From Thermomicrobiales bacterium (GTDB taxonomy: Bacteria > Chloroflexota > Chloroflexia > Thermomicrobiales > JALYUS01): 36,350 bases of DNA. The translations under genes and the position numbers were made by a program. The notes beneath the pieces were generated by a model. That model did not search any database, was not told the DNA's origin, and saw only the letters and a program-made list of their open reading frames with translations. Below are positions 19,620 through 31,529 of this stretch, in pieces. Within the stretch, counting starts at the first letter, position 1; every line of letters starts with the position of its first letter. Location of the stretch: positions 1 to 36,350 of the forward strand of contig JBPCPB010000296.1 of NCBI GenBank assembly GCA_050999735.1, in the 5' to 3' direction.

Positions 19620-19695
19620 GGCAAAGCCTCCTTGGCGAGGGAACGGTCCGCCAACCAGACCCTACGCCCGGAGGCTTTGCGCTTCAACCCGTTGG

Positions 19696-19783: not shown

Positions 19784-20491
19784 TCACGGATGCATTGCTG
19801 GTGCCGCGGTGGTTTGGTCGATTCGCTGCGCCCACACGCGCCGCACCCGCAGGTCGGGGCTATCCGCCGTCCCGGTGAAATAGATATGATCCCCGACCGC
19901 CAGATGGCGCGCGGCGCCCGTTTCGGACGTGCCGTCGTGGTAGTGGATCATCGTCTCCGGGACGATCACGAGCTCCCGCTCGACATCGCCATCCCGTCCG
20001 GTATTCGGGGCAATTGTGACCGTTGTGCGCCCTATCACCGTGATCGTTCCGTACTACGTGAGCATGTTCGCGTTCACCCACCGCGCCACACGATCCCCTC
20101 GCATGTCACGGGAGAACCCTGCTGCCACGCGATCCCCGGTCTGCAGATCGGTCCACCGCGCCGCGCAACTGCCCCGACAGATCTGCGTATTCGGCGCCAG
20201 GACGAGGCGCAGGTCGTCCGGCCCCGAGGCGGTGAGCTGCATGGTCGTCGCGGACACGGTCACGAGCGTGCCGGTGGCAAAGCCCGCTGTGGCTGCCGTA
20301 GTACCGGCAGGGGTTGCATTGGTGCCCGATGACGCACCCGTTTGGGCACGGCCGACGAGGAACAACGCGATAAGCGGCAATTGCCAACGGCGCAGCCAGT
20401 CCCCCTTGTGGCGGGCAGCGAGGATCAGGCTGAGTATGCCAACGACGAGGACGCGGGCGCCTCGACGGGTATGTCGTCCATGCCACATCAT
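19784..20491 (-). pseudogene. Secreted protein with two tandem beta-rich (DUF5666-like) repeats, interrupted by an in-frame TAG at 20054-20056
   Basis: ORFs 20054..20491 and 19784..20038 share one frame and are separated only by TAG plus 5 sense codons (...ANMLT*YGTITVIGRTTV...). The N-terminus has an anchor (RVLVVGILSLILAA). Both halves share the pattern G.(V/I)T(V/I)....(L/V)....D..V.V.P.T.I...........L..GD.(V/I). They could alternatively be two separate genes. Confidence 0.55.
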
Positions 20492-20573
20492 TGCCGTTCC
20501 CCGCTCCTTCAGTCTTCCTCGGAATACGACGCGCCATCACGCCGGCGCGCTCGCATCCGCGTGTGCGTGCATG

Positions 20574-21755
20574 CTACGGCGCCGGGGTCGCCGTTGGGCC
20601 GGGCGGCGCGATAGGGAGCACGACCGGAGTGGGCGTATACGGTCCCATCGATGGCGCGACGGTCGGCGCATAGTCTTGCGGCGGGATCGTGGACACGGGT
20701 CCGACCGAGGGGAAGGGCAGGGGCGTCGGCGGTGGCCCACTCACCGCCGCGGGTGCCGACCGCGTGGCGATCGGCGGTGCGGGGGTCGCCGTCGGCACGG
20801 GGCCGGGGAGGGTCGGCCCCGGCTGAGTCGCCAGCCCTTCCGCCTGCACGCGCAGTTCCCTCCGATTCTGCCCCGGCGCTTCGAGAACCGTGAGCAGCCC
20901 CTGGTAGCCGTCCCCGCCCGGCAGCGTCCACGCGCTCCACGCGTACGGCCCGTCCCCGCCCCCCGCGACGCGCGTCCAGCCTGCCGCCTGCACCTGCTGC
21001 GCGTAGAATGCTTCGAGATCTGCCGCGCGCTTGTCGGTCAGGGCGGTCGCCTCCGAGGTAAAGCGATTATTCCCGCTTCCACTCCCATTCGGCTGCACCT
21101 GCACACCCGCCGGTGGGGCGAGGGCGGGCAGCCGTCCCGATTCCGGCAGTGGTGGCGGGCCGGGTGCGGTCGGGATGAAGCACGGCCCCGGCCCCGTGGC
21201 ATCAATATGCACCCGCACATCGGCCTGCCCGCTCGCTTCGGGAGCGGCTGTCACGGTCAGGAACGGGGCAGCGCCGATCTTCTGGCAGAAGGTGGCGGCG
21301 GTATCGTTCGGTGCGGCGGCTTGGAAGCCGCCCCCGAAGGGGCCGACTGGCGGCTTCGTCCAGCCGAGGGCGGCGAGTTGCTGCCCGTAGACTTGCAGGA
21401 TGTCCGCGGGCGTACCGGGCGCGTCGAGAATCACGTCCCAGAGCACGGCATCTTGCCCACGCCGGCGCACGACGCTGCCAACGACGCGGCTGTTCGGCGG
21501 CTGCGGCAAGGCGAGGGGCAGGTCGCTCGGCATCTGACCGGGGAGCAGATCGGCGGCCTGCTGCTGACTCGTGGAGCCACTACCGGGCACGGTGAGGAAG
21601 CGCCCGACGAGTGCGCGCAACGCGGCGGCATCGTCCGCCGGATCAGCATGGGCGATGGCAGGCCCACTCCGGCCCGATGTTGCCACCACCACGAGACCGA
21701 GCGCGATGCCCACGAGGACGATGCTGCCGACGTTCATTCGTTTCCCGTAACGCAC
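20574..21755 (-). CDS. Secreted hypothetical protein with two internal repeats and a Pro/Thr-rich C-terminal tail
   Basis: GTG 21755 (AGAGGGAA upstream) or ATG 21737. It has a signal/anchor (VGSIVLVGIALGLVVVA). Two modules end in ...Y.QQ..AAGWT. The C-terminus is Pro-rich. Confidence 0.75.
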   Translation of the reverse strand: MRYGKRMNVGSIVLVGIALGLVVVATSGRSGPAIAHADPADDAAALRALVGRFLTVPGSGSTSQQQAADLLPGQMPSDLPLALPQPPNSRVVGSVVRRRGQDAVLWDVILDAPGTPADILQVYGQQLAALGWTKPPVGPFGGGFQAAAPNDTAATFCQKIGAAPFLTVTAAPEASGQADVRVHIDATGPGPCFIPTAPGPPPLPESGRLPALAPPAGVQVQPNGSGSGNNRFTSEATALTDKRAADLEAFYAQQVQAAGWTRVAGGGDGPYAWSAWTLPGGDGYQGLLTVLEAPGQNRRELRVQAEGLATQPGPTLPGPVPTATPAPPIATRSAPAAVSGPPPTPLPFPSVGPVSTIPPQDYAPTVAPSMGPYTPTPVVLPIAPPGPTATPAP

Positions 21756-21857
21756 GACATTCCCTCTCTTCCCTTGCCCCGAGAGGGATCATCCTTCGGG
21801 GTCACGACCTTTGCCATCGCGCGCTCCTGCATCAGGAGGATACTGCGGGAGGTCTCC

Positions 21858-22391
21858 TCATCCGAGGGGTAGTGCCTGATGGGGATCGTACCCGGTGCGC
21901 ATCATCACGCGACCCGTGTCCACAATGACGTTGCCACCCTCCATGCTGATCGGCATCCAGTCGAGCGGGCGCGCGACGAAATCGGCGGGGCGATTCGTCG
22001 GCCCCCTGAGGACCGTTCCCATTTTCCCGTCATACAGCGCGCCACAACAGGGGCATCCCAGTTTCCCACCGAGCGCAGGGCTGGGTGACGGCACCGTGCA
22101 GCCCTCCACCGGGCACTTCCAGTAGACCGCGATCATTGTATCGGTCGTCGCCGGGAGCAGGTAGAACCGACCGTCGGTGTTGCGGACATACTGCTGCGTG
22201 GCGAGTGCCGCGCGGATCTCCGTGATGCTGCCCGCGTTGACCTTCGTGCCGAACGCCCCGATGCGTCTGGCGGCGGGGGTCGTGGTCGCGCGCGTGATAT
22301 CACATCCAGCGAGGGGCGCGGTCACGGCCGTGCCTGTCGCCCAGCCGAGCAGGGTTCGTCGCGTGGAGCGGCGTGGCGTCATTGACTGCAT
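21858..22391 (-). CDS. Tat-signal lipoprotein with a Rieske-type fold but degenerate cluster-binding boxes
   Basis: Twin-arginine STRRTLL plus lipobox LAGC. Box I reads CPVEGC (canonical CxHxGC) and box II reads CPCCG (canonical CPCHG). Downstream is GTVLRGP, as in Rieske proteins. AAGGAG lies 7 nt before ATG 22391. Confidence 0.75.
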   Translation of the reverse strand: MQSMTPRRSTRRTLLGWATGTAVTAPLAGCDITRATTTPAARRIGAFGTKVNAGSITEIRAALATQQYVRNTDGRFYLLPATTDTMIAVYWKCPVEGCTVPSPSPALGGKLGCPCCGALYDGKMGTVLRGPTNRPADFVARPLDWMPISMEGGNVIVDTGRVMMRTGYDPHQALPLG

Positions 22392-22412
22392 CGCTGCGCT
22401 CCTTCGCTCAGT

Positions 22413-24545
22413 TCACTGGACCGACGCCACGATCCGCCGCAACTGATCGGGCGTGTAGCGCGCCGGGTTCGTCAACGTCAGCGCGACATCGCCCTGTGCC
22501 CACGAAAGCGAGACCCATTCCTCGCCCCTGCGCACGATAGTCACGTCATGCCCGCCAATCATCTCATGCGCCGCCTGCGGGTCGGGGGTCGCCACAGCGG
22601 GGGTTGCGGCCTTCGGCGTCTCCCGCAGCGTCATCAGCGCCTGGCTCGGCGGCGTGTCGGGATGCGGGTCGAAGCCGAGGATCACCCCTGTGCCGGTTCC
22701 CGGCTGGGAACCGGGGATCGGTTGCTCGCGCATGGTCAGCGGTTCCGGTAGCCACGCTGGGCGCAGGATAGTGAACGGCGGGGCGGGGATCGCCGTCGGC
22801 GTCGGGCGAGTAGTTGGCCGCTGCGTCGCGCCGAGGTCCGCCGTCTTCGACAGCGACGCGGCAATCGTCACGAGGTCCTCCTTCGTCTCATTGGAGCCGG
22901 AGAGGGCAAGATAGGTCCCTTCCTGCTGCCACCAGAGGATTGGTCCGCCCGTTTCCGGCGTCCCGGCGAGGAAATGCGCGGCGACGCCGTTCGGCAGCGT
23001 CAGCGGCGTGCCGTCATGCTTCGGGGACAGGCCATCCAGGCAGCACCCCGCCGGGCCATTCAGGATGGAGAGCGCCTTCGTCCCGCCCGCTGTGTGATAG
23101 TCGATGCGCACCATCGCCTGCGGCTGATCCCCGCCGACAGGCGGCTCCGGGATCAGCCCCGCCGGGACGGCGCTCGGCACGAAAACCGGGAATGGCATCT
23201 GCTGGCGGATCTGCGCAAGCGTGAGCGGGGCCGGGGTAGGCAGTGGCGCGTGGCCGCCGGGCACGGGCGCGAGCGAGAGGGCGATGCGGAGCAGATCGTC
23301 TTTTCCGAGCACGAAGCTGCCGAGGCCGATCCGCACGCCATCGCGCACGAACGTCAGATTGGCGCTCCCACCGGTACCGTCGGCATTCCGGACACCGGGG
23401 CTGTACCAGCCCGCGATCGCACCGACCTGGACCGCCTCCGATTGATTGGGGATATCGGTCACGTCGCTCGCGCTCGCTTTGCGCTCGGCGATTTCGACGC
23501 CATATTGGCTGGCGGGGGAGTTCGTCCCGGCCTCGGTGGGCGAGACATAGGCGAGGAGAAGGCCCGGGACGGGCGGATCGAGGTGCGGCTGGCGCGGGAC
23601 GAGATCTGCGGGGACATCCTGTGGCACGAAGAGCGGATAGTCGGCCTGTTTCGCCAGCGCGTCGAGTTGCTGCCGGTATTGCTCCGCCGTCGGGGCGGGC
23701 TGGGGGCGGAAGTCGTGGATGGCCGCGCCGGGCGGCGGCGTGTAGGTGAAGCGGGCGGGATCAATCGGCGCGTTGTACTGCACGCTCGTCACTTCCCGCG
23801 TCGCGATGACCTGGTTGTCGTGCGTTGCATACGTCACATCCTTGAGCGTGAAGAAGGTTTCCCGGTCTACCCAGAGCCGCCGCTTCCCGTTGTACTGTGC
23901 GCCGTCGGCGGACGGGCATTTCGTCGGGCCGAGATCGATCACATATGCGGCCCGGCCCGCGACGCGCTCATCGCCCTGCACCGTCAGGGTGTAGCAGCTT
24001 CGGGTGGCGGCGAGCAAACTGTCGAGATTGGTGGCAGACTGCCCGTACTGATTCCGGTAGCGCAGGTCGGTCATGCCGTCCTGGCGCGCGTTGGCGAGGT
24101 TGATCTGGACATCATTCCCTTGCGCGCGCCACATCGTCGCGCCGTCGCTCATGAGCGTCCAGGCGGTGTGACTGGCCTGGCCGCCTGCGGGAGTGCGTGG
24201 CGTGTAGGTGTCCGTTGCCTCGGTGCGCCAGCGATCCGGCGCCTGATACCAGCGTTGCGTTTCGTCGCGCGTCTCGCCGACCGCTGCGCCAGCGGCGTCG
24301 AGGCGCTGTGATACCGTCGTTTCGGTGAGCACGACGGTCAGCACGGTCCCCGCTGTAGACGACGGAGGGGCGGGCGTCGCCTCCCGTGTCGGAACGGATA
24401 CCGGTGATGTGGGCTGCGATGCCACGATGGGCGCTGTCGCGGGCACGGCGACCTCAGGGCGATCGCGACAGGCGGTGAGCATGACCAACGCCAGCACGGC
24501 GACCAGTACACCCGCGCGTCTGCTTCGCTGCCACCGCCGCCCCAT
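22413..24545 (-). CDS. Large exported protein: LolA/RseB-like domain followed by three DUF4367-like repeats
   Basis: ATG 24545 (GGTGGAGGAA upstream). It has a signal/lipobox-like VLALVMLTAC. The N-terminal half carries the LolA/RseB-type pattern (...GRAAYVIDLGP...RLWVDRETFFTLK...ARFTYTPPPGA). Three C-terminal units end in ...DDLLRIALSL, ...EDLVTIAASL and ...DQLRRIVASV. Confidence 0.75.
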   Translation of the reverse strand: MGRRWQRSRRAGVLVAVLALVMLTACRDRPEVAVPATAPIVASQPTSPVSVPTREATPAPPSSTAGTVLTVVLTETTVSQRLDAAGAAVGETRDETQRWYQAPDRWRTEATDTYTPRTPAGGQASHTAWTLMSDGATMWRAQGNDVQINLANARQDGMTDLRYRNQYGQSATNLDSLLAATRSCYTLTVQGDERVAGRAAYVIDLGPTKCPSADGAQYNGKRRLWVDRETFFTLKDVTYATHDNQVIATREVTSVQYNAPIDPARFTYTPPPGAAIHDFRPQPAPTAEQYRQQLDALAKQADYPLFVPQDVPADLVPRQPHLDPPVPGLLLAYVSPTEAGTNSPASQYGVEIAERKASASDVTDIPNQSEAVQVGAIAGWYSPGVRNADGTGGSANLTFVRDGVRIGLGSFVLGKDDLLRIALSLAPVPGGHAPLPTPAPLTLAQIRQQMPFPVFVPSAVPAGLIPEPPVGGDQPQAMVRIDYHTAGGTKALSILNGPAGCCLDGLSPKHDGTPLTLPNGVAAHFLAGTPETGGPILWWQQEGTYLALSGSNETKEDLVTIAASLSKTADLGATQRPTTRPTPTAIPAPPFTILRPAWLPEPLTMREQPIPGSQPGTGTGVILGFDPHPDTPPSQALMTLRETPKAATPAVATPDPQAAHEMIGGHDVTIVRRGEEWVSLSWAQGDVALTLTNPARYTPDQLRRIVASVQ

Positions 24546-24593
24546 CACATTCCTCCACCCATCGGCTGCGCTTCCCTGGAACGCCACACGCTT

Positions 24594-25904
24594 CTACCTC
24601 CCCGCATCCGGGGTCTGGATCAACCGGCCGCCCCGGTAGCTGGGAAACTCCCGCGCCGCCTGGATCGCGAGCGTCCGGGCATCGAGTCGCTGGAGGAGGG
24701 AAGGGACGTCGGGGAGCAGGATGTGGCTGTCGCCCTCGCCCTCTTTCGGCCCGAAGACGAAGATGTTCTGCCCATCGGGCGCGGGAAGCACCCAGTTGAT
24801 CGTTCGCTCAGGCAAGGCATTGGCCGTGATCGTGTTCCGCGTGAGGTCCAGCCGCGTCAGGCCGAGGCTATGGAAGGTCTGCGCATCGTGGTCATCGAGC
24901 AGGGTCTGGAAGCCGGAGAGATACAGGGAGCGTCCATCCGGCGCGTAGATGGCATCGCGACTCGTTCCGACGCCGGGGGGACCCTTCGCGGCGACGTGCT
25001 GCGGGATGAGACCCAGGACGTGCAGCAGGCCGGAGCCACCCGTGAGACTGATGGTACGCGCGATGGTGAGCCGCTGCGTGTCAATGAGCGTCACCCGGTC
25101 CGCATCGGCATGGGCGATAGCGATCTGCCGACCGTCGGGGGAGAGCGCGATCCCCGGCGAAAGTGCTGCCCGCACCGCTTCGCCCTGCATCATGCGGCCC
25201 GTTGGCCAGCTCCCTGTTGTCACCTCCGGGAGCGCGAGCCGCCCGCGTTCAGCGCCCGTATGCAGGTCGTAGGCGATGAGCGAGATGGGCCGGGGCCCCG
25301 GCGCGGTGGCGGCAGGCGCTGCGGTAATGAACCGATAGAGGGCCTGCGCATCCGCATCAATGAGGGTTGGCAGGTAATCGTTCGACGGCGCGGCGTTTAC
25401 CGTAGTGAGGACGTGGCCATCCGCCGTGTCCAGCACGTCCCACTCGTCCGGCGATGGATTGCCGGACGGATATGGCTGGACGACGAGCCGGGCGCCGTCG
25501 CGGCTGAGGCGCGTGCCGAGCACCGGGGCGGGAGGATGGAAACTTACCCGCGCCGCACCCGTCCGGTTATCGCGGACCGTCACCGTTGTGTCGCTGGGCG
25601 TCGAGTACGGCCCATCCGTCCGGGCGTAGTCGAACGTCGCCAACTGCGCGCCGTCCGGCGAGACGGTCATGAAGCGGGTGGCGAGGCTCAGGGGAGGACG
25701 ATCCTGCCGATCACCGAGCGTCTGGGTGTCGAGCGGCACGAGCGTCATGCCGGGCGGTAACTGGTTAGGGGGATGCACCTCGAAGAGATAGAGATCGGTC
25801 GGCGGGCCGACGCGCTGCTGCGCGGTCGTCCGTGACGCACCGCAACCACTGACGAGGAGTGGGATCAGGCCCAGCATGCAACCGATAGTGAAGAATCTCC
25901 GCAT
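24594..25904 (-). CDS. Beta-propeller-repeat lipoprotein (repeated S/A-P-D-G motifs)
   Basis: Lipoprotein signal MRRFFTIGCMLGLIPLLVSGC-G. It has recurrent SPDGAQL, SRDGARL, SPDGRQI, APDGRSL and APDGQNI blades. GGGAGGG lies 5 nt before the ATG. Confidence 0.75.
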   Translation of the reverse strand: MRRFFTIGCMLGLIPLLVSGCGASRTTAQQRVGPPTDLYLFEVHPPNQLPPGMTLVPLDTQTLGDRQDRPPLSLATRFMTVSPDGAQLATFDYARTDGPYSTPSDTTVTVRDNRTGAARVSFHPPAPVLGTRLSRDGARLVVQPYPSGNPSPDEWDVLDTADGHVLTTVNAAPSNDYLPTLIDADAQALYRFITAAPAATAPGPRPISLIAYDLHTGAERGRLALPEVTTGSWPTGRMMQGEAVRAALSPGIALSPDGRQIAIAHADADRVTLIDTQRLTIARTISLTGGSGLLHVLGLIPQHVAAKGPPGVGTSRDAIYAPDGRSLYLSGFQTLLDDHDAQTFHSLGLTRLDLTRNTITANALPERTINWVLPAPDGQNIFVFGPKEGEGDSHILLPDVPSLLQRLDARTLAIQAAREFPSYRGGRLIQTPDAGR

Positions 25905-25953
25905 CGTACCCTCCCGTCGTCTCCATCATCGCGCGTCCGCTTGCATTACTTCC

Positions 25954-25982: not shown

Positions 25983-26001
25983 GCTTTTGCCACGGTCGTC
26001 G

Positions 26002-26517
26002 CTACTCCGGTTGGTCGGCGCGACGTTCATCGTTCGGGGATGAAGGTGTGACGCGGATCGGGTTGCCGTCTGCATCGCCGACGTAGGGATGGCCGTCCTC
26101 GTTCAGGTACATGTAGCCGATGGGATTGCCGTCCGTATCCACGGTGCGGTTGCTCCCCGTGTTGTACGACTCGCTCCGCATTACTGTGTCGATCTCTCCC
26201 GTGACCTGATCGGTCACACCGAGTTGCCGCATTACCTGCGCGGGCCAGTCGTCACTGCTGATGATCGCAAGCAGGATGTGCTCCGGACCGACAACGCTCT
26301 GGCCACGCTGTTTGGCTTCCTGCCTGGCGCGTCGGAGCACTTCCCAACCCGCCGGGTTCATCTCCATGAGGTGCAGGAGATTCTTCTGCGCCTCGTGCTC
26401 GATCGCATGCTGACATGTCTCGGAGAGCGGGATGCCAAATCGCCGCGCCGCGTCGAGATGCGTGAGCGAGATGTCCACCGTTACCTTCGCCATCATACCC
26501 TCCATGTGCGAATCCAT
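26002..26517 (-). CDS. Ribbon-helix-helix (CcdA-like) N-terminus fused to a single Clp_N (Clp amino-terminal) repeat
   Basis: ATG 26517 has GAGGG 6 nt upstream; the ORF-track extension to 26892 is non-protein-like. KVTVDISLTHLDAARRFGIPLSETCQHAIEHE resembles CcdA/RHH antitoxin N-termini. GQSVVGPEHILLAIISSDDWPAQVMRQLGV is a Clp_N repeat. The tail has two D.DGNPI repeats. Confidence 0.7.
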   Translation of the reverse strand: MDSHMEGMMAKVTVDISLTHLDAARRFGIPLSETCQHAIEHEAQKNLLHLMEMNPAGWEVLRRARQEAKQRGQSVVGPEHILLAIISSDDWPAQVMRQLGVTDQVTGEIDTVMRSESYNTGSNRTVDTDGNPIGYMYLNEDGHPYVGDADGNPIRVTPSSPNDERRADQPE

Positions 26518-26531
26518 GACATGCCCTCGTG

Positions 26532-26635
26532 AAAGAAAAGCCCCCGTTGGTGGGAGAACCGCAGGGGGCGGGGAGTGGGGAAGTGGTGGTGGGGAACCAC
26601 CAATGCGAGAGCAGATACTACGGTATCCTGCTCTC
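26532..26635 (-). promoter_or_regulatory. Structured leader in the 244-nt gap before the RHH-Clp_N gene (three hairpins, one terminator-like)
   Basis: Hairpin 26607-26635: 12-bp stem, one bulge, 4-nt loop. Hairpin 26585-26601: GGTGGT/ACCACC. On the minus strand, CCCCC-N18-GGGGG followed by CTTTTCTTT (26568..26532) ends 14 nt before the SD. TTGGTGG (26603..26597) is complementary to CCACCAA in the terminator loop (26553..26547), which allows alternative pairing. Confidence 0.35.
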
Positions 26636-26761
26636 ATCCTCTTCAACGAATGAATACCGGCAAACCGGACAGGTCCGTGCAGGCGGATAGTCAGTCGCTT
26701 CGGGCGGAGGGGCCGGTCAATCCTCGAACTGGCTCGCGACCCGATCCGCCACTGGATTTTT

Positions 26762-27187
26762 TTAGCCATTCGGTGCATACACGACGAGGGCAAGTTTGGT
26801 CTCTGGTGCGAGTGGCATCCCCGGCCCCAGTGGAGTCCTGGTGTCGCGTTCGACGACCATGGCAACCCGATCCGGCGTTGCTGTCCCGACAAAGGGGGGC
26901 CGGGTTGCGTAATTGGTCACTTCCACGTCCACGAAGCCGCGTCGGATAAGCGCGTCTCGTGCCGCATCGCCACCCAGCCCGATGACATTCGGCAGTGGGA
27001 TCGTCGGGTGACCGGGGATCCTCGTGATCGGCAAGGGAGTAAGGGCAACGACCCTGCTTCGGGCAGTGTCGGTTGGCGTTGCGGTGCGTGTGGATGCTGG
27101 GGCAAGCCGCCCCACGCCGTAGCCGACGAGCAGGAGCGCGATGCCCATACATACGAGGCAGGGGATGCGCGCACGCGGGCTACTCAT
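26762..27187 (-). CDS. Membrane-anchored single-PASTA-domain protein
   Basis: ATG 27187 with GGAGGGAG 8 nt upstream. It has an N-terminal TM (IPCLVCMGIALLLVGYGVG). The PASTA-like segment is PLPNVIGLGGDAARDALIRRGFVDVEV...LALVVYA. TAA stop. Confidence 0.75.
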   Translation of the reverse strand: MSSPRARIPCLVCMGIALLLVGYGVGRLAPASTRTATPTDTARSRVVALTPLPITRIPGHPTIPLPNVIGLGGDAARDALIRRGFVDVEVTNYATRPPFVGTATPDRVAMVVERDTRTPLGPGMPLAPETKLALVVYAPNG

Positions 27188-27233
27188 CGCCTTTACTCCC
27201 TCCGTACCGGGAAACCGATCCCATCCCGCCTGC

Positions 27234-27866
27234 TCATGCCTGGCGTTTCCGCCCCAACGCGTAACCACCGGTCGCCGCGACGACGATGCCAAGGCTCAGT
27301 ATCGCGATTGGCCACGCGGGATAGACCGTCCGCGTGAGCACGGCGGCGGTATCTGCCTAGGGGATTGCCGTCGCTCCCGTTCCCGCAGCCCCGGTCGTCC
27401 CCCGTGCGATGGCGACCGTGCCGGGCGAGTTGCCCGGGAGATCAATCCCCTGCTGGGCGAGGATGCGCCGCATCGTCTCATCGCCGATCGGCGAGACGCG
27501 ATACCAGTGATCGTCGTACGCCGACGCGCCGTTGACGAGGCCGATGTAATGGACGTAGCTGACCGCTTGATTCAACCCGGGATAGTAGCGTGCACGGTCG
27601 AAGGTACCGCGCTGCACGTCGTAGCCGACGCCAAGCGTGACTGGTGCAGCGATCGGCTGCGTCGGATCCATCAAGGTTGCGATGCCGAGCGCGGGCAAGG
27701 CAAGCGGATCGGTGACGATGATCGGTTTCGGCAGCCCCGGGCCACTGATCGTCACCTCGGTCGCCTGCCCGCCTGCGGCAATTGCCTCCGGCACAAACCC
27801 ACCGAGCATGAGCAAGAGGCTGAACATGCCGCCGAAACGCGCCAATGCGAGCCATCGCTGCCGCAT
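27234..27866 (-). pseudogene. Signal-peptide / C-tail-anchored protein (paralog of 27996..28622) with an in-frame TAG at 27357-27359
   Basis: ATG 27866 (GGAAGGAG upstream). The strict ORF ends at TAG 27357. The same frame continues for 40 codons, ADTAAVLTRTVYPAWPIAILSLGIVVAATGGYALGRKRQA, then TGA at 27234. This is the TM anchor plus basic tail found at the C-terminus of the paralog. Confidence 0.6.
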
Positions 27867-27995
27867 CCTGTTTGCTCCTTCCCGTTGATTTGACTCGTTG
27901 CGATCCAACATACCATGCCGCGCGCACTCCGCCGCTGGCGATTAACGACGATCGCAAGCGAGAAGTGGGACATTGTGCGCTCCCTTCCTTTGCTC

Positions 27996-28622
27996 CTACC
28001 CCGGCGCCGTTCGGTGTGCCCGTGTGTCCCGCGACAACGCGCGCTTCGGGATGACGCGCGCGACACACAGCCCTACTGCTAATCCGACGATTCCGGTGAG
28101 CGGCAGCAGCCAGCGGGGCCATGGCGCGTCCGCGCGGTCGGTCGCATTGACGGGCGCGGTCGCTTCCTGTGCGAGGTGGACGAGATTGGGATAGTCGCCG
28201 GGCACCGCGATGCCGCGCATCGCCAGGGCGGTGCGGAAGACCAGATCGCCGCTACAGGTCGCGCGATACCAGTGGTTGTCGAATTCCGTGCCGATCTGCC
28301 CTGGATCACCGATGGAGAAAACGGCCCCACAGCTCCCGCCCGGACTGGGATAGAAACGGACGCGCTCCCCGCCATCGCGCGTCATCTCATAGGCAAGGGC
28401 ATTGCCTGCGGGCGGGGTGATGATCCTGGTGGAGTCCATGAAGCCGACAATGCCGAGCGTGGGCAGCGCCAGCGGGTTCGTCTCGCGGATCGGCGTCGCG
28501 ATGCCCGGCCCGGTGATCTCCACCTCCGTCGGCACTCCCTTCGCCAAGGCGGCCGAAGAAAAGAGCAGGAGAGCAAAGAGACCGAGGCTCATGCCGTAGA
28601 TGCGGGAAGAACGACTGATCAT
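27996..28622 (-). CDS. Signal-peptide / C-tail-anchored hypothetical protein (family member 1)
   Basis: ATG 28622 overlaps the AAA+ stop (ATGA at 28619-28622). The signal peptide ends ...SSAALA-KG. It has a roughly 130-aa domain and a C-terminal TM (WLLPLTGIVGLAVGLCVA) followed by basic residues. Confidence 0.8.
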   Translation of the reverse strand: MISRSSRIYGMSLGLFALLLFSSAALAKGVPTEVEITGPGIATPIRETNPLALPTLGIVGFMDSTRIITPPAGNALAYEMTRDGGERVRFYPSPGGSCGAVFSIGDPGQIGTEFDNHWYRATCSGDLVFRTALAMRGIAVPGDYPNLVHLAQEATAPVNATDRADAPWPRWLLPLTGIVGLAVGLCVARVIPKRALSRDTRAHRTAPG

Positions 28623-30127
28623 CCTTCGTCTCCTTGCTGCACCGTCCGCGTCGTGACCACGGGGAAGCCTGTCGGCGCCATGGGCCGCGAAGGATGTGGC
28701 GCACCGACATGGTCCGCCGGTTCCTGCGCCGGGCGGAGGCCGAGGAGGCGCTGCGCGAGTTGGCCGCCTTCCTGCAATTCGGCCAGAGCGGCCTGCAGAT
28801 GCGCTCCCGTCACCACCATCTCCGCCCCTGCCATCGCGGCGAGCACCGTTGCCTTGCGCAGCAACTCTTTGATGTATGCGGGGCTTGCGCCTTCGGTCCG
28901 CGCGACGAGTGTGGCGGGTTCGACATCCCGCAATGTCAATCCCCGGGCGTAGAGCTCCAGCAACCGGCGTCGGCCCTCGGCATCCGGGAGCGGCAACTCG
29001 ACGGCCAGATCAATCCGTCCGGGGCGCGCGGCAAGCGTGGGTTCGAGGATGTCCACGCGGTTCGTGGTGAGCGCGAAGATGACGTCGCAGTCGTCGCGCA
29101 GGCCGTCCATCTCATTCAAGAGCTCGAAGAGCAGCGGACCGGTGCGCCCGAACGGCTGGCCGCGCTCCTCAGCGATCAGGTCCACATCCTCCAACACGAC
29201 CATCGCGGGCGCGAGGATGCGCGCCATCTGCACGACGGTCTGCAACAGCCCCATGCCGCGCCCGGTGGTGAGCAATACCGTCCGGTCCGGCATCCGGCCA
29301 ACCAGATACATCACCGTCAGCGTCTTACCAACACCAGGCGGGCCGTACAGCAGCAGGCCGCGCTTGAGCGAGCGCCCGGCCGCCAGCAGGCGCGCGGATT
29401 GCTCGGCGAAGCCAACCGTCTGTCGCTCGATCCGCTCCAGCAGCCCCGACGGCAACACAACATCCGCGCGGGCGACGGGTGGTAGGGCGTGGAAGGCGAT
29501 CAACGTCTGCGGGCCGGGGCCGAGCTGAGCCTGACCAAGCGAGATGACGTGCCCGCGATAGACATTCAGCCGCCGCATGCCGTCGAGCAGTGCGGTCAGA
29601 AAGGCCTGTCCATCTTCCGGCTTCGCGGCCAGCACCTCGATCCGCACCTTCATGCGCGGGCCACCCCGATCGGAGGGGCCAGTTACGAAGATAACCAGGT
29701 GTGCATCGCTATCCTCGACGAGATAGAGGCCGTACTGAACACAGGCGAGCACGCGGTCGTCGGCGAGATGGACGTTGACGTAGTCCACCGGCCCCTCGGC
29801 CAGCACCGGGCGACCGATGCCGCCAACGCGGCTCACGAGGTCGGAGAGGCTGAGGGCCATGAAGCGCTTGTTGTCCATCGCCACACCGACGAGCGCGGCG
29901 CGCCGCCTCGCGCCGCTCAGATAGTCGTCCAGCGCCACCTGAACGTTGGGGTGCTCGAAGGAATCGAACTCCTCCGCGATCACGGGCAGCTGGGTCGGGT
30001 CGCTGCCGAGATGCGCCTGAATCCGCTCGAGCAGCGGGCTGCGCGGCGGCGAGGATTCCGCGACGACGGCGTCCATGAATGCCTTAAAGGCGGTGCCGAA
30101 GCGGGCGGGCGAGAAATCATCAACCAT
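28619..30127 (-). CDS. AAA+ ATPase (classical clade) with a roughly 250-aa uncharacterised N-terminal domain
   Basis: ATG 30127 (GAGGAGG 8 nt upstream). Walker A is LLYGPPGVGKT and Walker B is MVVLEDVD. The second region of homology is TTNRVDILEPTLAARPGRID, and there is a C-terminal helical lid (GASPAYIKELLRKA). Confidence 0.88.
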   Translation of the reverse strand: MVDDFSPARFGTAFKAFMDAVVAESSPPRSPLLERIQAHLGSDPTQLPVIAEEFDSFEHPNVQVALDDYLSGARRRAALVGVAMDNKRFMALSLSDLVSRVGGIGRPVLAEGPVDYVNVHLADDRVLACVQYGLYLVEDSDAHLVIFVTGPSDRGGPRMKVRIEVLAAKPEDGQAFLTALLDGMRRLNVYRGHVISLGQAQLGPGPQTLIAFHALPPVARADVVLPSGLLERIERQTVGFAEQSARLLAAGRSLKRGLLLYGPPGVGKTLTVMYLVGRMPDRTVLLTTGRGMGLLQTVVQMARILAPAMVVLEDVDLIAEERGQPFGRTGPLLFELLNEMDGLRDDCDVIFALTTNRVDILEPTLAARPGRIDLAVELPLPDAEGRRRLLELYARGLTLRDVEPATLVARTEGASPAYIKELLRKATVLAAMAGAEMVVTGAHLQAALAELQEGGQLAQRLLGLRPAQEPADHVGAPHPSRPMAPTGFPVVTTRTVQQGDEG

Positions 30128-30207
30128 CAGCGAAACCTCCTCTGCGGGCGCGCAGGTGCACATACTCCATAGAACGAATGGACCCACCTTCAACCGGACA
30201 GATCGCG

Positions 30208-30984
30208 CTACGGGACCGACGCCAGCACCGCTGCGAGAGTGGTTGCATCCAGCCCGTCGCGCCGGTCGCCCGATGCGATGAGGACGAGATCGGGCCGCTC
30301 CACGACGAGCCGCCCCAGCTGCAACGGCGGGCCGCCGTCCGCCGGGCGCGCCCCCTCGGCCGCCTGGTCAATGTAGACCGCGTGGTACCCGCCGACCATC
30401 ATCTCGCGCGTCGCGCCCGGCGGCGCAGTGAGTGTGCTGCCGCCAGCCGCCTGGTAGGTGAGCGCGAGCGGCTGATTTGCGCCGGGGCGGTGGTACATGA
30501 CGAAGACCTGGCTAGGCGGCATGCCGGGGTCGGGCTGGAAGACCGTGATGTCCGCAAGGGTGAAGCCGGACGGCACCGATTGCGGCAGCGCCACGGGGAA
30601 GGAGACGAGTTGACGCGCCTCGGCGAGGCCGACGTGCCGGATCGGGCCGCCGCCCGGACCCGGTGTGGTGATGACGGCGCGCGGCGCGCCGGATTGACCG
30701 GGCGGTGGCGCCTCGCGCACGACGATCCCCCGGAACCAGCTTCCCGCCGCGGACAGCGCGCCCGGCGCGACGACGAGCGCACCGAGCAGGCCGATGCCGA
30801 GCACGACCGCCAGCGTGATACCAACACGCCTGAATGCCGCGCGCGGGGGCCGTTCCGTGATCCGTCGCAGCACGGGCTGCACGACATCGAAGCGGGGTTC
30901 GCGCTCGCGCAGTCGCGCCAACAGTTGCTCCACGTCATCGGCCGCCGATTGTCGGGCTGCGGGATCGTCTTCTTCGGGTCTCAT
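30208..30984 (-). CDS. Anti-sigma-factor-like membrane protein with extracytoplasmic DUF4367-like domain
   Basis: ATG 30984 overlaps the sigma gene stop (ATGA). It has a short cytoplasmic N-terminus and a single TM (VGITLAVVLGIGLLGALVV). The C-terminal domain ends ...LDATTLAAVLASV, like the DUF4367 units of 22413..24545. There is no HxxxCxxC zinc motif. Confidence 0.75.
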   Translation of the reverse strand: MRPEEDDPAARQSAADDVEQLLARLREREPRFDVVQPVLRRITERPPRAAFRRVGITLAVVLGIGLLGALVVAPGALSAAGSWFRGIVVREAPPPGQSGAPRAVITTPGPGGGPIRHVGLAEARQLVSFPVALPQSVPSGFTLADITVFQPDPGMPPSQVFVMYHRPGANQPLALTYQAAGGSTLTAPPGATREMMVGGYHAVYIDQAAEGARPADGGPPLQLGRLVVERPDLVLIASGDRRDGLDATTLAAVLASVP

Positions 30985-31529
30985 GGCATAACTACTTCGT
31001 CGAGTGCCGCATATACCTGGCGGAAATGTTCCTTCGCCCGCGTGAAGCGCTTGCGAATCGCCTCAGAACTGCCGCCAAGCATCGCCGCAGCCTCCGGGTA
31101 GGATACCCCTTCCAAGCCGCATAGGAGCAGCACCGCACGTTCGTCGGGGCGCAGGCGCGCGAGCGTCTGCCGCACGAGGTCACATTCCTCCACCGAGCCG
31201 GGCGGATCGGCAGAGACAACCCGGTCAATGCCGTGCAGCGAGACCCAGGCGATGCGGCGACGGCGGCGCAGGTGGTCGTAAGCGAGGTTGGTGGCGATGC
31301 GGTAGAGCCACGGCTTGAAGTGCAGCCCCGGTCGGGTGCGTCCGAGCGCATCATACGCGCGCACAAATGCCTCCTGCGCGAGATCGAACGCCACCTCACG
31401 GTCACCGATCAGGCGGAAGAGATAGCCGCCGATCGCCTGCTGGTAGCGCGTCACCAGCGTAGCGAACGCGGTATGATCCCCTGCCCGCGCCTCTTCGACC
31501 AGTTCCTCGTCCGCCCGACCTTCACTCAC
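30981..31529 (-). CDS. ECF-type RNA polymerase sigma-70 family factor
   Basis: Region 2 is FATLVTRYQQAIGGYLFRLIGDREVAFDLAQEAFVRAY...WLYRIATNLAYDHLRRR. Region 4 HTH is LLLCGLEGVSYPEAAAMLGGSSEAIRKRFTRA. GTG start at 31529 with AGGTGG 7 nt upstream. Confidence 0.9.
   Translation of the reverse strand: MSEGRADEELVEEARAGDHTAFATLVTRYQQAIGGYLFRLIGDREVAFDLAQEAFVRAYDALGRTRPGLHFKPWLYRIATNLAYDHLRRRRRIAWVSLHGIDRVVSADPPGSVEECDLVRQTLARLRPDERAVLLLCGLEGVSYPEAAAMLGGSSEAIRKRFTRAKEHFRQVYAALDEVVMP

What the first reader, a model, noticed from the sequence alone, without database searches (positions are those of the whole stretch)
19784..31529. ECF sigma / anti-sigma-headed, 11-12-gene unidirectional envelope cluster with an unusual domain inventory
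All of these genes are on the minus strand, with overlaps or short gaps. The order is:
- ECF sigma (30981-31529)
- DUF4367 anti-sigma (ATGA overlap with the sigma gene)
- AAA+ ATPase with an unknown 250-aa N-domain
- C-tail-anchored protein (ATGA overlap with the AAA+ gene)
- its paralog
- single-PASTA membrane protein
- RHH-Clp_N protein
- SPDG-repeat beta-propeller lipoprotein
- LolA/RseB-like protein with three DUF4367 repeats
- Tat lipoprotein with a His-less Rieske fold
- Pro-rich secreted protein
- OB-like secreted protein
Sigma/anti-sigma/RseB-like logic is established for sigma-E systems. I do not know of a described system that couples it to a cytoplasmic AAA+ ATPase, a stand-alone Clp_N protein, a PASTA sensor and a family of tail-anchored exported proteins. 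The working idea is a cell-envelope sensing or remodelling module whose signal could be processed by the AAA+/Clp_N pair.
Basis: partly seen in the sequence, partly recalled or inferred. Interest (0 to 1): 0.7.

Follow-up and report, generated by a model that had tools for sequence, protein, structure and literature searches.

The report
ECF sigma-controlled envelope gene island
In an uncultured Chloroflexota bacterium, one alternative sigma factor appears to switch on three neighbouring operons that encode poorly known cell-surface proteins and a Bcs1/YjoB-like AAA+ chaperone; this is a variable, probably mobile stress-response island, not a fixed new machine.

Summary
The 12-gene minus-strand cluster is real, and most domain calls hold: ECF sigma, AAA+, Clp_N, RseB/LolA-like, His-less Rieske. 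The 'PASTA' call is not supported. The 'tail-anchored' proteins are signal-peptide type-I membrane proteins. Two genes (TA2 and the DUF5666/'OB' gene) carry premature stop codons.

The main new result is a promoter-like motif, TGTCCG-N15/16-TTCGTT. It occurs exactly three times in the window (0.01 expected), always on the minus strand and always intergenic: upstream of the sigma gene, the AAA+ gene and the Clp_N gene. It recurs at the same places in relatives. It also follows sigma orthologues (56-69% identical) into other gene contexts. The cluster is therefore best read as the local regulon of an autoregulated ECF sigma, in three transcription units.

The AAA+ protein is Bcs1/YjoB-like: Bcs1-like N-domain fold (weak), 'ED' Walker B, and no aromatic pore loop. 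B. subtilis YjoB is already a known member of the sigma-W (ECF) regulon.

The cargo is plastic. Distant sigma/anti-sigma orthologues drive MauE/DoxX and thioredoxin-like genes instead. The AAA+ and TA families occur widely without each other. Relatives carry the module on conjugative elements.

Verdict: a new variant of a known kind, of moderate interest. The proposed AAA+/Clp_N signal-processing role is unsupported.

The parts
31552..31578 (-). Predicted sigma-dependent promoter P1 (TGTCCG-N15-TTCGTT), about 25 nt upstream of the sigma start codon. It implies autoregulation.
   Evidence: Exact motif match, with 3 in the window against 0.01 expected. In the alignment of upstream regions from relatives, the motif block is conserved while the flanks diverge. 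The same site is present in L081, L084-L087, L113 and L119.
30981..31529 (-). ECF (group 4) sigma factor, 182 aa
   Evidence: Pfam Sigma70_r2 9.4e-18, Sigma70_r4_2 1.8e-12, Sigma70_ECF 1.2e-4. NCBIfam TIGR02937 scores 82.3 bits against a cut-off of 42.9.
30208..30984 (-). Single-pass anti-sigma candidate, 258 aa. It has a ~53-aa cytoplasmic N-terminus, a TM helix at 54-72, and an extracytoplasmic DUF4367-like domain.
   Evidence: ATGA overlap with the sigma gene. TM segment. Ectodomain homologous to the RseB-like repeats. No Pfam hit. Only 22 relatives were found in the clustered database of about 5.8 billion proteins, and every one whose locus was examined lies next to a sigma orthologue.
30173..30200 (-). 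Predicted sigma-dependent promoter P2 (TGTCCG-N16-TTCGTT) upstream of the AAA+ gene
   Evidence: An equivalent site (exact or with 1 mismatch) lies just upstream of the AAA gene in L001, L081, L083, L085/L086 and L087; in L084 the nearest site precedes the inserted 353-aa gene.
28619..30127 (-). Soluble Bcs1/YjoB-like AAA+ ATPase, 502 aa. N-domain 1-~235, followed by one classic-clade AAA module with an 'ED' Walker B (VVLEDVD) and no aromatic pore loop 1.
   Evidence: PF00004 and AAA_lid_3. AlphaFold model with pLDDT 81.5. Foldseek top hits are Bcs1 and YjoB. For the N-domain alone, the top 8 hits are all Bcs1. hhalign against mouse Bcs1 gives 37% identity and E=1e-17 over the AAA module. The pore-loop residues fall in a gap against p97.
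27996..28622 (-). TA1, 208 aa: signal peptide ending in AKG, a ~110-aa uncharacterised extracytoplasmic domain, a C-terminal TM helix and a basic tail. It is translationally coupled to the AAA+ gene.
   Evidence: ATGA overlap. Alignments. Hydropathy. The family has 362 representatives with no Pfam or PDB match.
27234..27866 (-). TA2, a paralogue of TA1. An in-frame TAG at 27357-27359 interrupts it, where relatives have TCG (Ser). The truncated product lacks the TM anchor.
   Evidence: A weak 2-mismatch motif lies at 27944-27972 upstream.
26762..27187 (-). It has an N-terminal TM helix at 8-26 and an unassigned ectodomain.
   Evidence: Orthologues of 141 aa in L084 and L087 and a truncated match in L085/L086, 84-86% identical. 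TM segment. No Pfam or PDB support for PASTA.
26645..26671 (-). Predicted sigma-dependent promoter P3 (TGTCCG-N15-TTCGTT), followed by a ~125-nt structured leader before the Clp_N gene
   Evidence: Identical sites in L084 (7023) and L087 (6138). Leader fold and a terminator-like hairpin at 26560-26539.
26002..26517 (-). Cytoplasmic protein of 171 aa with a possible RHH N-terminus and one Clp_N repeat
   Evidence: PF02861 4.9e-9. CcdA (RHH) is weak at 0.018. Start codon and the L087 orthologue.
24594..25904 (-). Lipoprotein of 436 aa with SPDG-type repeats; a beta-propeller is likely
   Evidence: Lipobox LVSGC. PD40 is weak at E=0.01. 94% identical orthologue in L087.
22413..24587 (-). Lipoprotein of 724 aa: RseB/LolA-like N-domain plus three DUF4367-like repeats
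   Evidence: MucB_RseB 1.6e-8 (above cut-off), LolA_like 4e-5, DUF4367 sub-threshold. The repeats are homologous to the anti-sigma ectodomain.
21858..22391 (-). Tat-signal lipoprotein of 177 aa with a b6f/bc1-type Rieske fold in which both His ligands are replaced (CPVEGC...CPCCGA)
   Evidence: The motif STRRTLL plus the lipobox LAGC are read directly from the sequence.
20574..21755 (-). Pro-rich exported protein of 393 aa. A 47%-identical paralogue sits between the anti-sigma and AAA genes in relatives.
   Evidence: No Pfam hit.
19784..20491 (-). Its lipobox Cys is replaced by Arg. It is a likely pseudogene in this contig.
   Evidence: alignment with the intact L084 orthologue. DUF5666 is weak at E=0.005.

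Best explanation
The cluster is the local regulon of an autoregulated ECF sigma factor. It lies in a plastic, probably mobile, accessory island of a narrow Chloroflexota lineage.

Proposed mechanism:
1. The sigma (182 aa) is held at the membrane by the translationally coupled single-pass anti-sigma. The DUF4367-like ectodomain of the anti-sigma senses an envelope signal.
2. On release, the sigma recognises TGTCCG-N15/16-TTCGTT and transcribes three units.
   - Unit 1: sigma and anti-sigma.
   - Unit 2: the Bcs1/YjoB-like AAA+ gene, TA1, and probably TA2 and the 141-aa membrane protein.
   - Unit 3: the Clp_N protein, the beta-propeller lipoprotein, the RseB/LolA-DUF4367 lipoprotein, the degenerate Rieske Tat lipoprotein, the Pro-rich protein and the DUF5666 protein.
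3. The output is a set of surface proteins plus a cytoplasmic chamber-type AAA+ chaperone that is not a threading unfoldase. This parallels YjoB in the B. subtilis sigma-W envelope-stress regulon.
4. The RseB-like lipoprotein shares its repeat domain with the anti-sigma sensor. It could give feedback on the anti-sigma in an RseB-like manner.

Shown: gene content, promoter-motif statistics and conservation, and domain or fold assignments. Inferred: anti-sigma function, the inducing signal, the chaperone role and the feedback loop.
For: MOTIF IN THE WINDOW
- It occurs exactly 3 times, against 0.01 expected and 0 of 100 shuffles reaching 3. All three copies are on the minus strand, and all are intergenic and directly upstream of the sigma, AAA and Clp_N genes.

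MOTIF IN CLOSE RELATIVES
- The same motif occupies the equivalent sites. The hexamers are conserved while the spacers vary.
- It is retained, with 1 mismatch, upstream of the AAA gene in L001 and L083.

MOTIF IN DISTANT ORTHOLOGUES
- It travels with the sigma orthologue into different contexts. In L113 (sigma 69% identical) there are 3 exact and 2 one-mismatch sites, all on the coding strand. They lie upstream of the sigma gene, an Amidase_6 gene and two MauE/DoxX-redoxin operons.
- L115 (sigma 56% identical) has a 1-mismatch site upstream of its sigma operon.
- None of the loci L002-L080 has the motif.

GENE CONTENT
- The sigma and anti-sigma genes are translationally coupled.
- Near-complete gene order recurs in L087 and L084.
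- The AAA+ protein resembles Bcs1/YjoB.
- YjoB is a sigma-W regulon member and a putative chaperone (PMC9565160).
- Most products have signal peptides, lipoboxes or TM anchors.
Against: - No expression data exist. The promoter assignment is purely in silico.
- The relatives that share the full gene order are very close (sigma 90-94%, RseB-like 90% identical). Their synteny alone says little.
- The anti-sigma has no recognisable anti-sigma domain and only ~53 cytoplasmic residues.
- TA2 and the DUF5666 gene are disrupted in this contig, so part of the cluster may be decaying.
- The N-domain match to Bcs1 is weak (TM-score 0.26-0.32).
- By sequence score the AAA module lies nearer FtsH and p97.
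Confidence: 0.62

Rival explanations
1. The genes share a location but not a function. Only the sigma/anti-sigma pair belongs together. The other genes are unrelated accessory cargo of a mobile element, kept adjacent in close relatives by recent common descent.
For: - The AAA family has no recurrent neighbour across 80 species.
- The TA family has none of the cluster's other genes nearby in 24 distant loci, apart from one ECF-sigma-like hit in L107.
- The cargo differs between relatives. A redoxin, 353-, 389- and 330-aa genes, Clp_N and TA2 are each present or absent.
- In L119 an IS element directly follows the anti-sigma gene.
- Conjugation genes and transposases flank the module.
- The window itself carries nonsense mutations.
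Against: Three exact copies of a 12-base bipartite motif sit upstream of the first genes of three gene blocks, and they are conserved in relatives. Unrelated cargo is unlikely to show this. Shared regulation is itself a functional link, even if the proteins do not form one machine.
Confidence: 0.2
2. The island is a redox-protein biogenesis module. The Bcs1-like AAA+, with the membrane protein TA1 as its partner, chaperones or helps export the Tat-dependent Rieske-type lipoproteins encoded in the same island. This would echo the mitochondrial Bcs1-Rieske pathway.
For: - The AAA+ protein's best structural matches are Bcs1, including the Rieske-bound state 9gs2.
- It shares the ED Walker B and lacks the aromatic pore loop (PMC9565160).
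- A bc1/b6f-type Rieske gene lies in the same island in the window, and upstream of the AAA gene or of the sigma operon that precedes it in L001, L081, L083, L085 and L087.
- In Anaerolineae, the TA family lies next to heme A synthase, a cytochrome b-ferredoxin fusion and a Cu-ATPase in 16 of 24 loci.
- Distant sigma orthologues control envelope thiol-redox genes.
Against: - No Rieske-like ORF lies near the AAA gene in the other 79 species-level loci.
- None of 24 distant TA loci has the AAA gene.
- The window's own Rieske-like protein has lost both His ligands.
- The AAA+ protein has no membrane anchor.
- The N-domain fold match is weak.
- The adjacency is confined to close relatives.
Confidence: 0.08
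3. The AAA+ ATPase and the Clp_N protein together process the signal, for example by unfolding or degrading the anti-sigma.
For: Both proteins are cytoplasmic and sigma-linked. AAA+ unfoldases such as ClpXP are known, from general knowledge, to finish anti-sigma degradation in other systems.
Against: - The AAA+ protein lacks the aromatic pore loop needed for threading.
- It has no protease partner in the cluster.
- Clp_N domains belong to ClpA/B/C-type ATPases, not to Bcs1- or FtsH-type ones.
- The two genes lie in separate predicted transcription units.
- Clp_N is absent from the clusters of L084-L086, which keep the sigma, anti-sigma and AAA genes.
- The AAA gene is absent next to distant sigma/anti-sigma orthologues.
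Confidence: 0.05
4. The cluster is an anti-phage defence island regulated by an ECF sigma, as in the DdvS/DdvA CBASS-CRISPR locus.
For: The location is mobile-element associated. The AAA protein has weak similarity to IetA/IteA. An ECF-controlled defence island is a known precedent (PMC11506125).
Against: The PADLOC hits are generic AAA similarity only. There is no IetS partner, and no other protein hits any defence model. The products are mostly exported envelope proteins.
Confidence: 0.02

Closest known systems
Bacillus subtilis sigma-W regulon, including the AAA+ protein YjoB (PDB 7W42)
   Same: - An ECF sigma held by a membrane anti-sigma controls envelope-stress genes.
- These genes include a soluble single-module AAA+ with a Bcs1-like N-domain and an ED Walker B (PMC9565160).
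- YjoB is the second-best Foldseek hit of the full-length model, with the highest TM-score (TMq 0.46).
   Different: - There is no detectable sequence similarity between the N-domains.
- The paper describes YjoB as restricted to Bacillales, whereas this AAA family spans Chloroflexota, Actinomycetota, Planctomycetota and Myxococcota.
- Here the AAA gene sits directly beside the sigma operon and is translationally coupled to a membrane protein.
- The anti-sigma is unrelated to RsiW.
Mitochondrial Bcs1, the AAA+ translocase for the folded Rieske protein
   Same: - Architecture: an N-terminal Bcs1-type domain plus one classic AAA module.
- ED Walker B and no canonical aromatic pore loop.
- 37% identity over the AAA core.
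- Rieske-type genes lie in the same island.
   Different: - No N-terminal TM anchor.
- No BCS1_N Pfam match.
- The N-domain TM-score is only 0.26-0.32.
- The protein is bacterial and cytoplasmic.
- The Rieske proteins here carry Tat signals.
- Outside this lineage the family is not linked to Rieske genes.
E. coli/Pseudomonas sigma-E (AlgU) with RseA (MucA) and RseB (MucB)
   Same: An ECF sigma, a single-pass anti-sigma and an exported protein with a MucB_RseB/LolA-like N-domain are all present.
   Different: - The RseB-like gene lies seven genes downstream, in another transcription unit.
- It is a 724-aa lipoprotein with three extra DUF4367-like repeats.
- The anti-sigma has no RseA domain.
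- Chloroflexota are generally regarded as monoderm (general knowledge), so no outer-membrane-protein or LPS signal is expected.
LolA-like lipoproteins with a DUF4367 domain in monoderms (B. subtilis SsdC; C. difficile GerS)
   Same: The LolA-like fold combined with DUF4367 in an exported lipoprotein is described for SsdC (bioRxiv 10.1101/2025.01.13.632879).
   Different: - Here there are three DUF4367-like repeats, which match Pfam only below threshold.
- The context is an ECF regulon, not sporulation or germination.
Mycobacterial/Streptomyces ClpC2, a DNA-binding domain fused to a ClpC1-NTD-like domain
   Same: It is a small stand-alone protein that joins a putative DNA-binding N-terminus to a Clp_N-type domain. 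ClpC2 is a phosphoarginine-responsive repressor (PMC13345244).
   Different: - Only one Clp_N repeat is detected, where a ClpC N-terminal domain has two (the two-repeat count is general knowledge).
- The RHH assignment is weak (E=0.018).
- Neither DNA binding nor phosphoarginine binding was tested.
Genomic islands that carry a self-contained ECF regulon (S. coelicolor island, bioRxiv 10.1101/247056; M. xanthus DdvS/DdvA defence island, PMC11506125)
   Same: The concept is the same: an ECF sigma/anti-sigma pair sits beside, and controls, accessory genes of one island (abstracts).
   Different: The cargo differs entirely, and the regulon here is predicted only from sequence.

Membership tests
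ECF (group 4) sigma-70 factors | Only the sigma-2 and sigma-4 domains, ~180-200 aa | tested here: met
   Sigma70_r2 and Sigma70_r4_2 hits, 182 aa. TIGR02937 scores 82.3 bits against a cut-off of 42.9.
ECF (group 4) sigma-70 factors | Co-transcribed cognate anti-sigma and an autoregulatory promoter with a conserved -35 box and a CGT-containing -10 box | tested here: met
   ATGA overlap. TGTCCG-N15-TTCGTT lies upstream of the sigma gene and is conserved in orthologues down to 69% identity. This is in silico evidence only.
RseA/RseB-type sigma-E system | RseB/MucB N-terminal (LolA-like) domain protein | tested here: met
   PF03888 scores 34.8 bits against a cut-off of 22.3.
RseA/RseB-type sigma-E system | RseA-type anti-sigma domain and contiguous rpoE-rseA-rseB order | tested here: not met
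   The anti-sigma has no Pfam hit. The RseB-like gene lies seven genes downstream, behind a separate promoter.
Bcs1 family AAA+ | 'ED' instead of 'DE' in Walker B (as stated in PMC9565160) | tested here: met
   VVLEDVD. E313 is nearly invariant and D314 invariant in 44 family members. The motif aligns with LVLLEDVD of mouse Bcs1.
Bcs1 family AAA+ | Bcs1-specific N-terminal domain | tested here: inconclusive
   No BCS1_N Pfam hit and no hhalign match in the N-domain. However, the top 8 Foldseek hits of the N-domain model are all Bcs1, with E from 4e-4 to 1e-2 and TM-scores of only 0.26-0.32.
Bcs1 family AAA+ | N-terminal transmembrane anchor | tested here: not met
   No hydrophobic segment lies in residues 1-290.
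Bcs1 family AAA+ | Heptameric ring that translocates folded Rieske protein | not testable with these tools
   This needs biochemistry or cryo-EM.
YjoB-like AAA+ | Soluble protein with a Bcs1-like N-domain plus one AAA module, under ECF sigma control | tested here: met
   Fold hit to 7w42 with TMq 0.46. Promoter P2. No TM segment. Sequence orthology to YjoB was not tested because no YjoB sequence was at hand.
PASTA domain proteins | Match to the PASTA profile (PF03793) or to solved PASTA domains | tested here: not met
   No Pfam hit at E<=0.1. No PASTA chain in the PDB search at E<=10.
Clp_N domain | Match to PF02861 above the gathering score | tested here: met
   36.7 bits against a cut-off of 20.7, with a single repeat at residues 189-237 of the long ORF.
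ClpC2-like repressors | N-terminal DNA-binding domain plus a complete ClpC-NTD (two Clp_N repeats) with a phosphoarginine-binding site | tested here: inconclusive
   The only RHH-like hit is CcdA at E=0.018, and only one repeat is found. Phosphoarginine-site residues were not examined.
Rieske [2Fe-2S] proteins | Rieske fold or sequence family | tested here: met
   The profile hits b6f/bc1 Rieske chains at E=2.8e-8. NCBIfam PetC hits at 5.8e-6, below its cut-off.
Rieske [2Fe-2S] proteins | Cluster ligands CxH...CxxH | tested here: not met
   The window, L084 and L087 have CPVEGC...CPCCGA, so the two His are replaced by Val and Cys. Paralogues keep CKHLGC...CPCHNS.
DUF4367 (PF14285) | Match above the gathering score | tested here: not met
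   The RseB-like protein scores 18.8 bits against a cut-off of 22.1, and the anti-sigma has no hit. The two proteins do share a homologous domain.
Tail-anchored membrane proteins | A single C-terminal TM helix and no N-terminal signal sequence | tested here: not met
   TA1, and TA2 in relatives, have an N-terminal hydrophobic signal peptide in addition to the C-terminal TM helix.
Known anti-phage defence systems (PADLOC) | Matches to the component models of a system | tested here: not met
   Only generic AAA similarity to IetA is found. The other nine proteins have no hits.

The most novel reading that the evidence does not exclude
A bacterial, soluble Bcs1-like AAA+ ATPase is translationally coupled to a membrane protein of an uncharacterised Chloroflexota family. 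In other classes, that family neighbours heme A synthase, cytochrome b and Cu-ATPase genes. On this reading, the AAA+ works with the Tat-exported Rieske-type lipoproteins of the same ECF-controlled island. That would make it a prokaryotic counterpart, or even a relative, of the mitochondrial Bcs1-Rieske assembly pathway, embedded in an envelope thiol/redox stress regulon.
Probability: 0.08. Interest if true: 0.85.

Novelty: new variant of a known kind. Interest (0 to 1): 0.45.

Why it matters
- The cluster offers a compact, testable ECF regulon in a phylum where almost no sigma-factor regulons are defined. The regulon comprises one sigma, a 12-base promoter motif and three target units.
- It identifies two uncharacterised protein families that deserve names. 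The first is a multi-phylum soluble Bcs1-like AAA+ family with an ED Walker B and no pore-loop aromatic. The second is a Chloroflexota-wide exported domain, here called 'TA', with 362 representative clusters.
- The same sigma and promoter drive different cargo in different mobile elements. This illustrates how ECF modules act as portable switches for accessory envelope genes.
- If the Bcs1-Rieske link proved real, it would bear on the origin of the mitochondrial Bcs1 pathway. The present evidence for that link is thin.

Tried and rejected
- **Conserved partners of the AAA family.** tblastn of all cluster proteins against 80 species-level AAA loci found co-occurrence only in L001. Clustering of neighbouring ORFs gave only lineage-specific synteny plus common families such as acyl-CoA dehydrogenase and ABC ATPase.
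- **A downstream partner coupled to the AAA gene in distant genomes.** None is consistent.
- **Rieske genes near distant AAA or TA loci.** An HMM built from the island's Rieske proteins found none.
- **PASTA assignment.** Rejected at the sequence level.
- **Defence-system reading.** Rejected.
- **Stop-codon recoding as the explanation for in-frame stops.** Rejected. TAG and TGA both serve as ordinary stops of neighbouring genes, and relatives have sense codons that differ by a single base at those positions.
- **Known RNA families in the window.** None found. The fold of the Clp_N leader is not significant (z = -1.56).
- **Sequence relatives of the AAA N-domain and the TA domain in the PDB.** None found.
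- **Pfam domains in longer TA-family proteins.** None found.
- **Sigma-70-type promoters and intrinsic terminators in the cluster.** Not enriched over shuffled sequence.
- **A first attempt to search genomes with a 45-sequence TA alignment.** It failed because no stretch was conserved enough, so a smaller alignment was used.
- **Structure prediction of TA1 and the 141-aa protein.** Not done, because both prediction slots went to the AAA+ protein and its N-domain.

Full report
**1. What is in the sequence.**
The window is a complete 36,350-bp contig of about 66% G+C. Frame-specific GC3 and ORF analysis give twelve co-directional minus-strand genes between 19784 and 31529. The closest relatives of its proteins are uncultured Chloroflexia and Thermomicrobia MAGs and Nitrolancea.

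Profile searches confirm these calls:
- An ECF sigma factor (Sigma70_r2 9e-18, r4_2 2e-12; TIGR02937 above cut-off).
- A classic-clade AAA+ module.
- A Clp_N repeat (36.7 bits against a cut-off of 20.7).
- A MucB_RseB/LolA-like domain (34.8 bits against 22.3).

The sigma/anti-sigma and AAA/TA1 junctions are ATGA overlaps. The Rieske-like protein carries a twin-arginine motif (STRRTLL) and a lipobox. Its family profile hits b6f/bc1 Rieske chains at 2.8e-8. Its two His ligands are replaced (CPVEGC...CPCCGA), whereas paralogues in relatives keep CKHLGC...CPCHNS. The anti-sigma ectodomain is homologous to two of the three repeats in the RseB-like lipoprotein (BLASTP 8e-6 and 4e-4).

**2. Corrections to the observation.**
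- The 141-aa 'PASTA' protein has an N-terminal TM helix. It matches neither the Pfam PASTA profile at E<=0.1 nor any solved PASTA domain at E<=10.
- DUF4367 is sub-threshold in the RseB-like protein and undetected in the anti-sigma.
- The 'tail-anchored' proteins have N-terminal signal peptides ending in a nearly invariant A-K-G, a ~110-aa domain, and a C-terminal TM helix. They are type-I membrane proteins.
- TA2 carries a TCG->TAG change that removes its anchor.
- The last two ORFs are one DUF5666-like gene split by a CAG->TAG change. That gene has also lost its lipobox cysteine.
- The gaps before Clp_N (244 nt) and before TA2 (130 nt) are not short.

**3. The key new result: a shared promoter motif.**
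Aligning the regions upstream of the sigma gene from relatives exposed a conserved block. Its core is TGTCCG-N15/16-TTCGTT.
- It occurs exactly three times in the 36-kb window. The expectation is 0.01, and none of 100 shuffles reached three.
- All three copies are on the minus strand and intergenic. They lie upstream of the sigma gene (31552-31578), the AAA+ gene (30173-30200) and the Clp_N gene (26645-26671).
- The layout matches ECF promoters: a -35 box, a spacer, and a CGT-containing -10 box. This comparison rests on general knowledge of sigma-W and sigma-X type promoters.
- In close relatives the hexamers are conserved at equivalent sites while the spacers vary.
- Sites with one mismatch persist upstream of the AAA gene in L001 and L083, where this sigma is not adjacent.
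- The motif follows sigma orthologues into unrelated contexts. In L113 (sigma 69%, anti-sigma 62% identical) there are three exact and two one-mismatch copies. They precede the sigma gene, an Amidase_6 gene and two MauE/DoxX-AhpC/TSA-thioredoxin-like operons.
- L115 (sigma 56% identical) has a one-mismatch copy upstream of its sigma operon.
- None of the distant AAA loci L002-L080 has the motif.

I therefore read the cluster as three sigma-dependent transcription units. This is inference from sequence; no expression data exist.

**4. The AAA+ protein.**
The family is strongly conserved over its full length, at 43-92% identity. It spans Chloroflexota, Actinomycetota, Planctomycetota, Myxococcota and other phyla. 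It has no specific Pfam or NCBIfam model for the N-domain and no sequence relative of the N-domain in the PDB.
- **Full-length model.** An AlphaFold model built from a 44-sequence alignment (pLDDT 81.5) finds Bcs1 and B. subtilis YjoB as its best Foldseek hits over ~470 columns.
- **N-domain model.** A separate model of the N-domain (pLDDT 78.5) has Bcs1 structures as its eight best hits (E from 4e-4 to 1e-2). The TM-scores are low, at 0.26-0.32.
- **Sequence features.** The Walker B box is VVLEDVD, with ED rather than DE, and is conserved across the family. The YjoB paper highlights this same swap for Bcs1 and YjoB (PMC9565160).
- **Comparison with Bcs1.** hhalign against mouse Bcs1 aligns the AAA core at 37% identity, E=1e-17. 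The mouse sequence was taken from the PDB search output.
- **Pore loop.** Against p97, the pore-loop-1 residues (MWFG) fall in a gap.
- **Topology.** The protein has no TM segment.

It is thus a soluble, Bcs1/YjoB-like AAA+ that probably works through an internal chamber. It is unlikely to thread substrates. According to PMC9565160, YjoB belongs to the sigma-W (ECF) envelope-stress regulon and is a putative substrate-specific chaperone. Membership in the Bcs1 family proper is not established. There is no BCS1_N hit and no TM anchor, and the AAA module scores at least as well against FtsH and p97.

**5. How conserved is the cluster?**
- **AAA loci.** In 79 of 80 species-representative AAA loci, none of the other cluster genes is nearby. 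No recurrent neighbour family emerges.
- **TA loci.** The TA domain family has 362 representative clusters, mostly Chloroflexota. None of 24 distant TA loci has the AAA gene.
- **Close relatives.** Metagenomic contigs with sigma 90-94% identical keep sigma, anti-sigma, a variable gene, AAA and TA. L087 and L084 keep nearly the whole order. Genes come and go between them: a Pro-rich paralogue, 198-, 330- and 389-aa genes, a redoxin, TA2 and Clp_N.
- **L119.** Here an IS element directly follows the promoter that lies after the anti-sigma gene.
- **A second module.** Several relatives carry a second ECF sigma, an RseB-like anti-sigma and a canonical Rieske gene just upstream. This module has its own GTAACG-N17-GCGTCT motif.
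- **Mobile context.** Relatives place the whole region beside conjugation and plasmid genes: TraG/VirD4, TrbC, ArdC, ParA and Rep_O. The window itself has an IS4-like transposase immediately downstream.
- **Distant orthologues.** Sigma/anti-sigma orthologues at 52-62% anti-sigma identity lack AAA and TA. They drive MauE/DoxX and thioredoxin-fold genes instead.

The stable entity is the sigma/anti-sigma/promoter switch. The cargo is plastic.

**6. Mechanism and rivals.**
Best explanation (confidence about 0.6). An envelope signal, perhaps related to thiol or redox stress given the cargo of distant orthologues, is sensed by the anti-sigma's DUF4367-like ectodomain. The signal releases the sigma, which autoregulates and induces two further units: the AAA+/TA unit, and the unit running from Clp_N to DUF5666. 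The RseB-like lipoprotein shares the sensor's domain type and may feed back on it.

Rivals:
- Mere co-location of unrelated cargo (0.2). The motif evidence weakens this.
- A Bcs1-like/Rieske biogenesis module (0.08). It is attractive because Rieske genes share the island, and because in Anaerolineae TA homologues sit beside CtaA, a cytochrome b-ferredoxin fusion and a Cu-ATPase in 16 of 24 loci. However, the AAA-Rieske adjacency is confined to close relatives.
It is contradicted by the missing pore loop, the separate transcription units, and the absence of Clp_N or AAA from related modules.
- A defence island (0.02).

For the Clp_N protein, the closest known analogue is ClpC2, a repressor with a ClpC1-NTD-like sensor domain (PMC13345244). 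For the RseB-like protein, the closest is the LolA-like/DUF4367 lipoprotein SsdC (bioRxiv 10.1101/2025.01.13.632879).

**7. Verdict.**
The finding is real and most of its domain calls hold, but its interpretation needs revising. This is a lineage-restricted, probably mobile ECF regulon island. Its cargo consists of uncharacterised envelope proteins and a Bcs1/YjoB-like AAA+. It is a new variant of a known kind of system, not a new signalling machine. Interest is moderate (0.45). The promoter prediction is directly testable, and the AAA+ and TA families are worthwhile targets in their own right.

Noticed in passing
window 27357-27359, 20054-20056, 18867-18869, 34525-34527: Four genes carry in-frame stop codons.
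- TA2: TCG->TAG, which removes its TM anchor.
- The DUF5666 gene: CAG->TAG, plus a lipobox Cys->Arg change.
- An IS4-like transposase (18405-19661): in-frame TAG.
- A PMT_2/DUF6541 glycosyltransferase (33964-35430): in-frame TGA.
For TA2 and the DUF5666 gene, relatives have sense codons at these positions. These could be real pseudogenes or consensus errors. Recoding is unlikely, because TAG and TGA end neighbouring genes normally.
   Followed up: partly
L091-L112 (e.g. L093 6916-13549; L103 8001-13891): In Anaerolineae, the TA-domain gene sits in a conserved neighbourhood. Heme A synthase (COX15/CtaA) lies directly upstream in 6 loci. A convergent ~685-aa cytochrome b + 4Fe-4S ferredoxin fusion lies downstream in 16 of 24 loci, followed by a heavy-metal (Cu-type) P-type ATPase in most of them. 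This hints at a role for the uncharacterised TA domain in respiratory or redox-protein biogenesis.
   Followed up: partly
L113 9406-20178; L115 2580-5907; L117 1187-3386: More distant orthologues of the sigma/anti-sigma pair keep the TGTCCG-N15-TTCGTT motif. There it precedes MauE/DoxX membrane proteins, AhpC-TSA/thioredoxin-like proteins and an Amidase_6 protein. This suggests an envelope thiol-redox theme for this ECF family.
   Followed up: partly
L119 1-4752; L113 1-8608; L085 156-1055: In relatives the sigma module lies next to conjugation and plasmid genes: T4SS coupling protein TraG/VirD4, TrbC, ArdC, ParA and a Rep_O-like replication protein. In L119 an IS element sits directly behind the promoter that follows the anti-sigma gene. 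The island is probably carried by an ICE or plasmid.
   Followed up: partly
L081 3980-6362; L083 6604-8983; L085 3151-5568; L119 6912-9326; window 32124-32456: Relatives carry a second module just upstream of the sigma gene: an ECF sigma (187-199 aa), a 406-422-aa RseB-like anti-sigma, and a canonical Rieske protein with His ligands. It has its own GTAACG-N17-GCGTCT motif. The window lacks this module and keeps only the small DUF4367-like gene (110 aa) that precedes it in relatives.
   Followed up: partly
window 35536-36350 (cut by the contig end); L083 3605-5221; L081 1-487: A beta-propeller-like gene is a paralogue of the cluster's 436-aa lipoprotein. Its orthologues in relatives have the sigma motif directly upstream. 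The regulon may therefore extend upstream of the reported coordinates and beyond the contig end.
   Followed up: partly
window 26505-26640 (- strand): The ~125-nt leader between promoter P3 and the Clp_N start codon folds into three hairpins. The last is followed by a U-rich run and looks like a terminator. At least its 5' hairpin region is conserved in L084 and L087. The fold is not statistically significant (z = -1.56), and no Rfam family matches.
   Followed up: partly
window 28619-30127 and loci L001-L080: The AAA+ protein belongs to a highly conserved but unnamed family found in several phyla. The family is ~500 aa long, 43-92% identical over its full length, and has an ED Walker B and no aromatic pore loop. 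Its genomic context varies, so it would merit a family description of its own.
   Followed up: yes
window 1-17100 and 4839-5516: The rest of the contig looks ordinary. It holds two sugar-type ABC transporter operons with solute-binding proteins, GFO/IDH/MocA oxidoreductases, a GntR/LacI-type regulator (17109-18356), an APH-family kinase, and a fragment with an IS66 zinc-finger (4839-5516).
   Followed up: no
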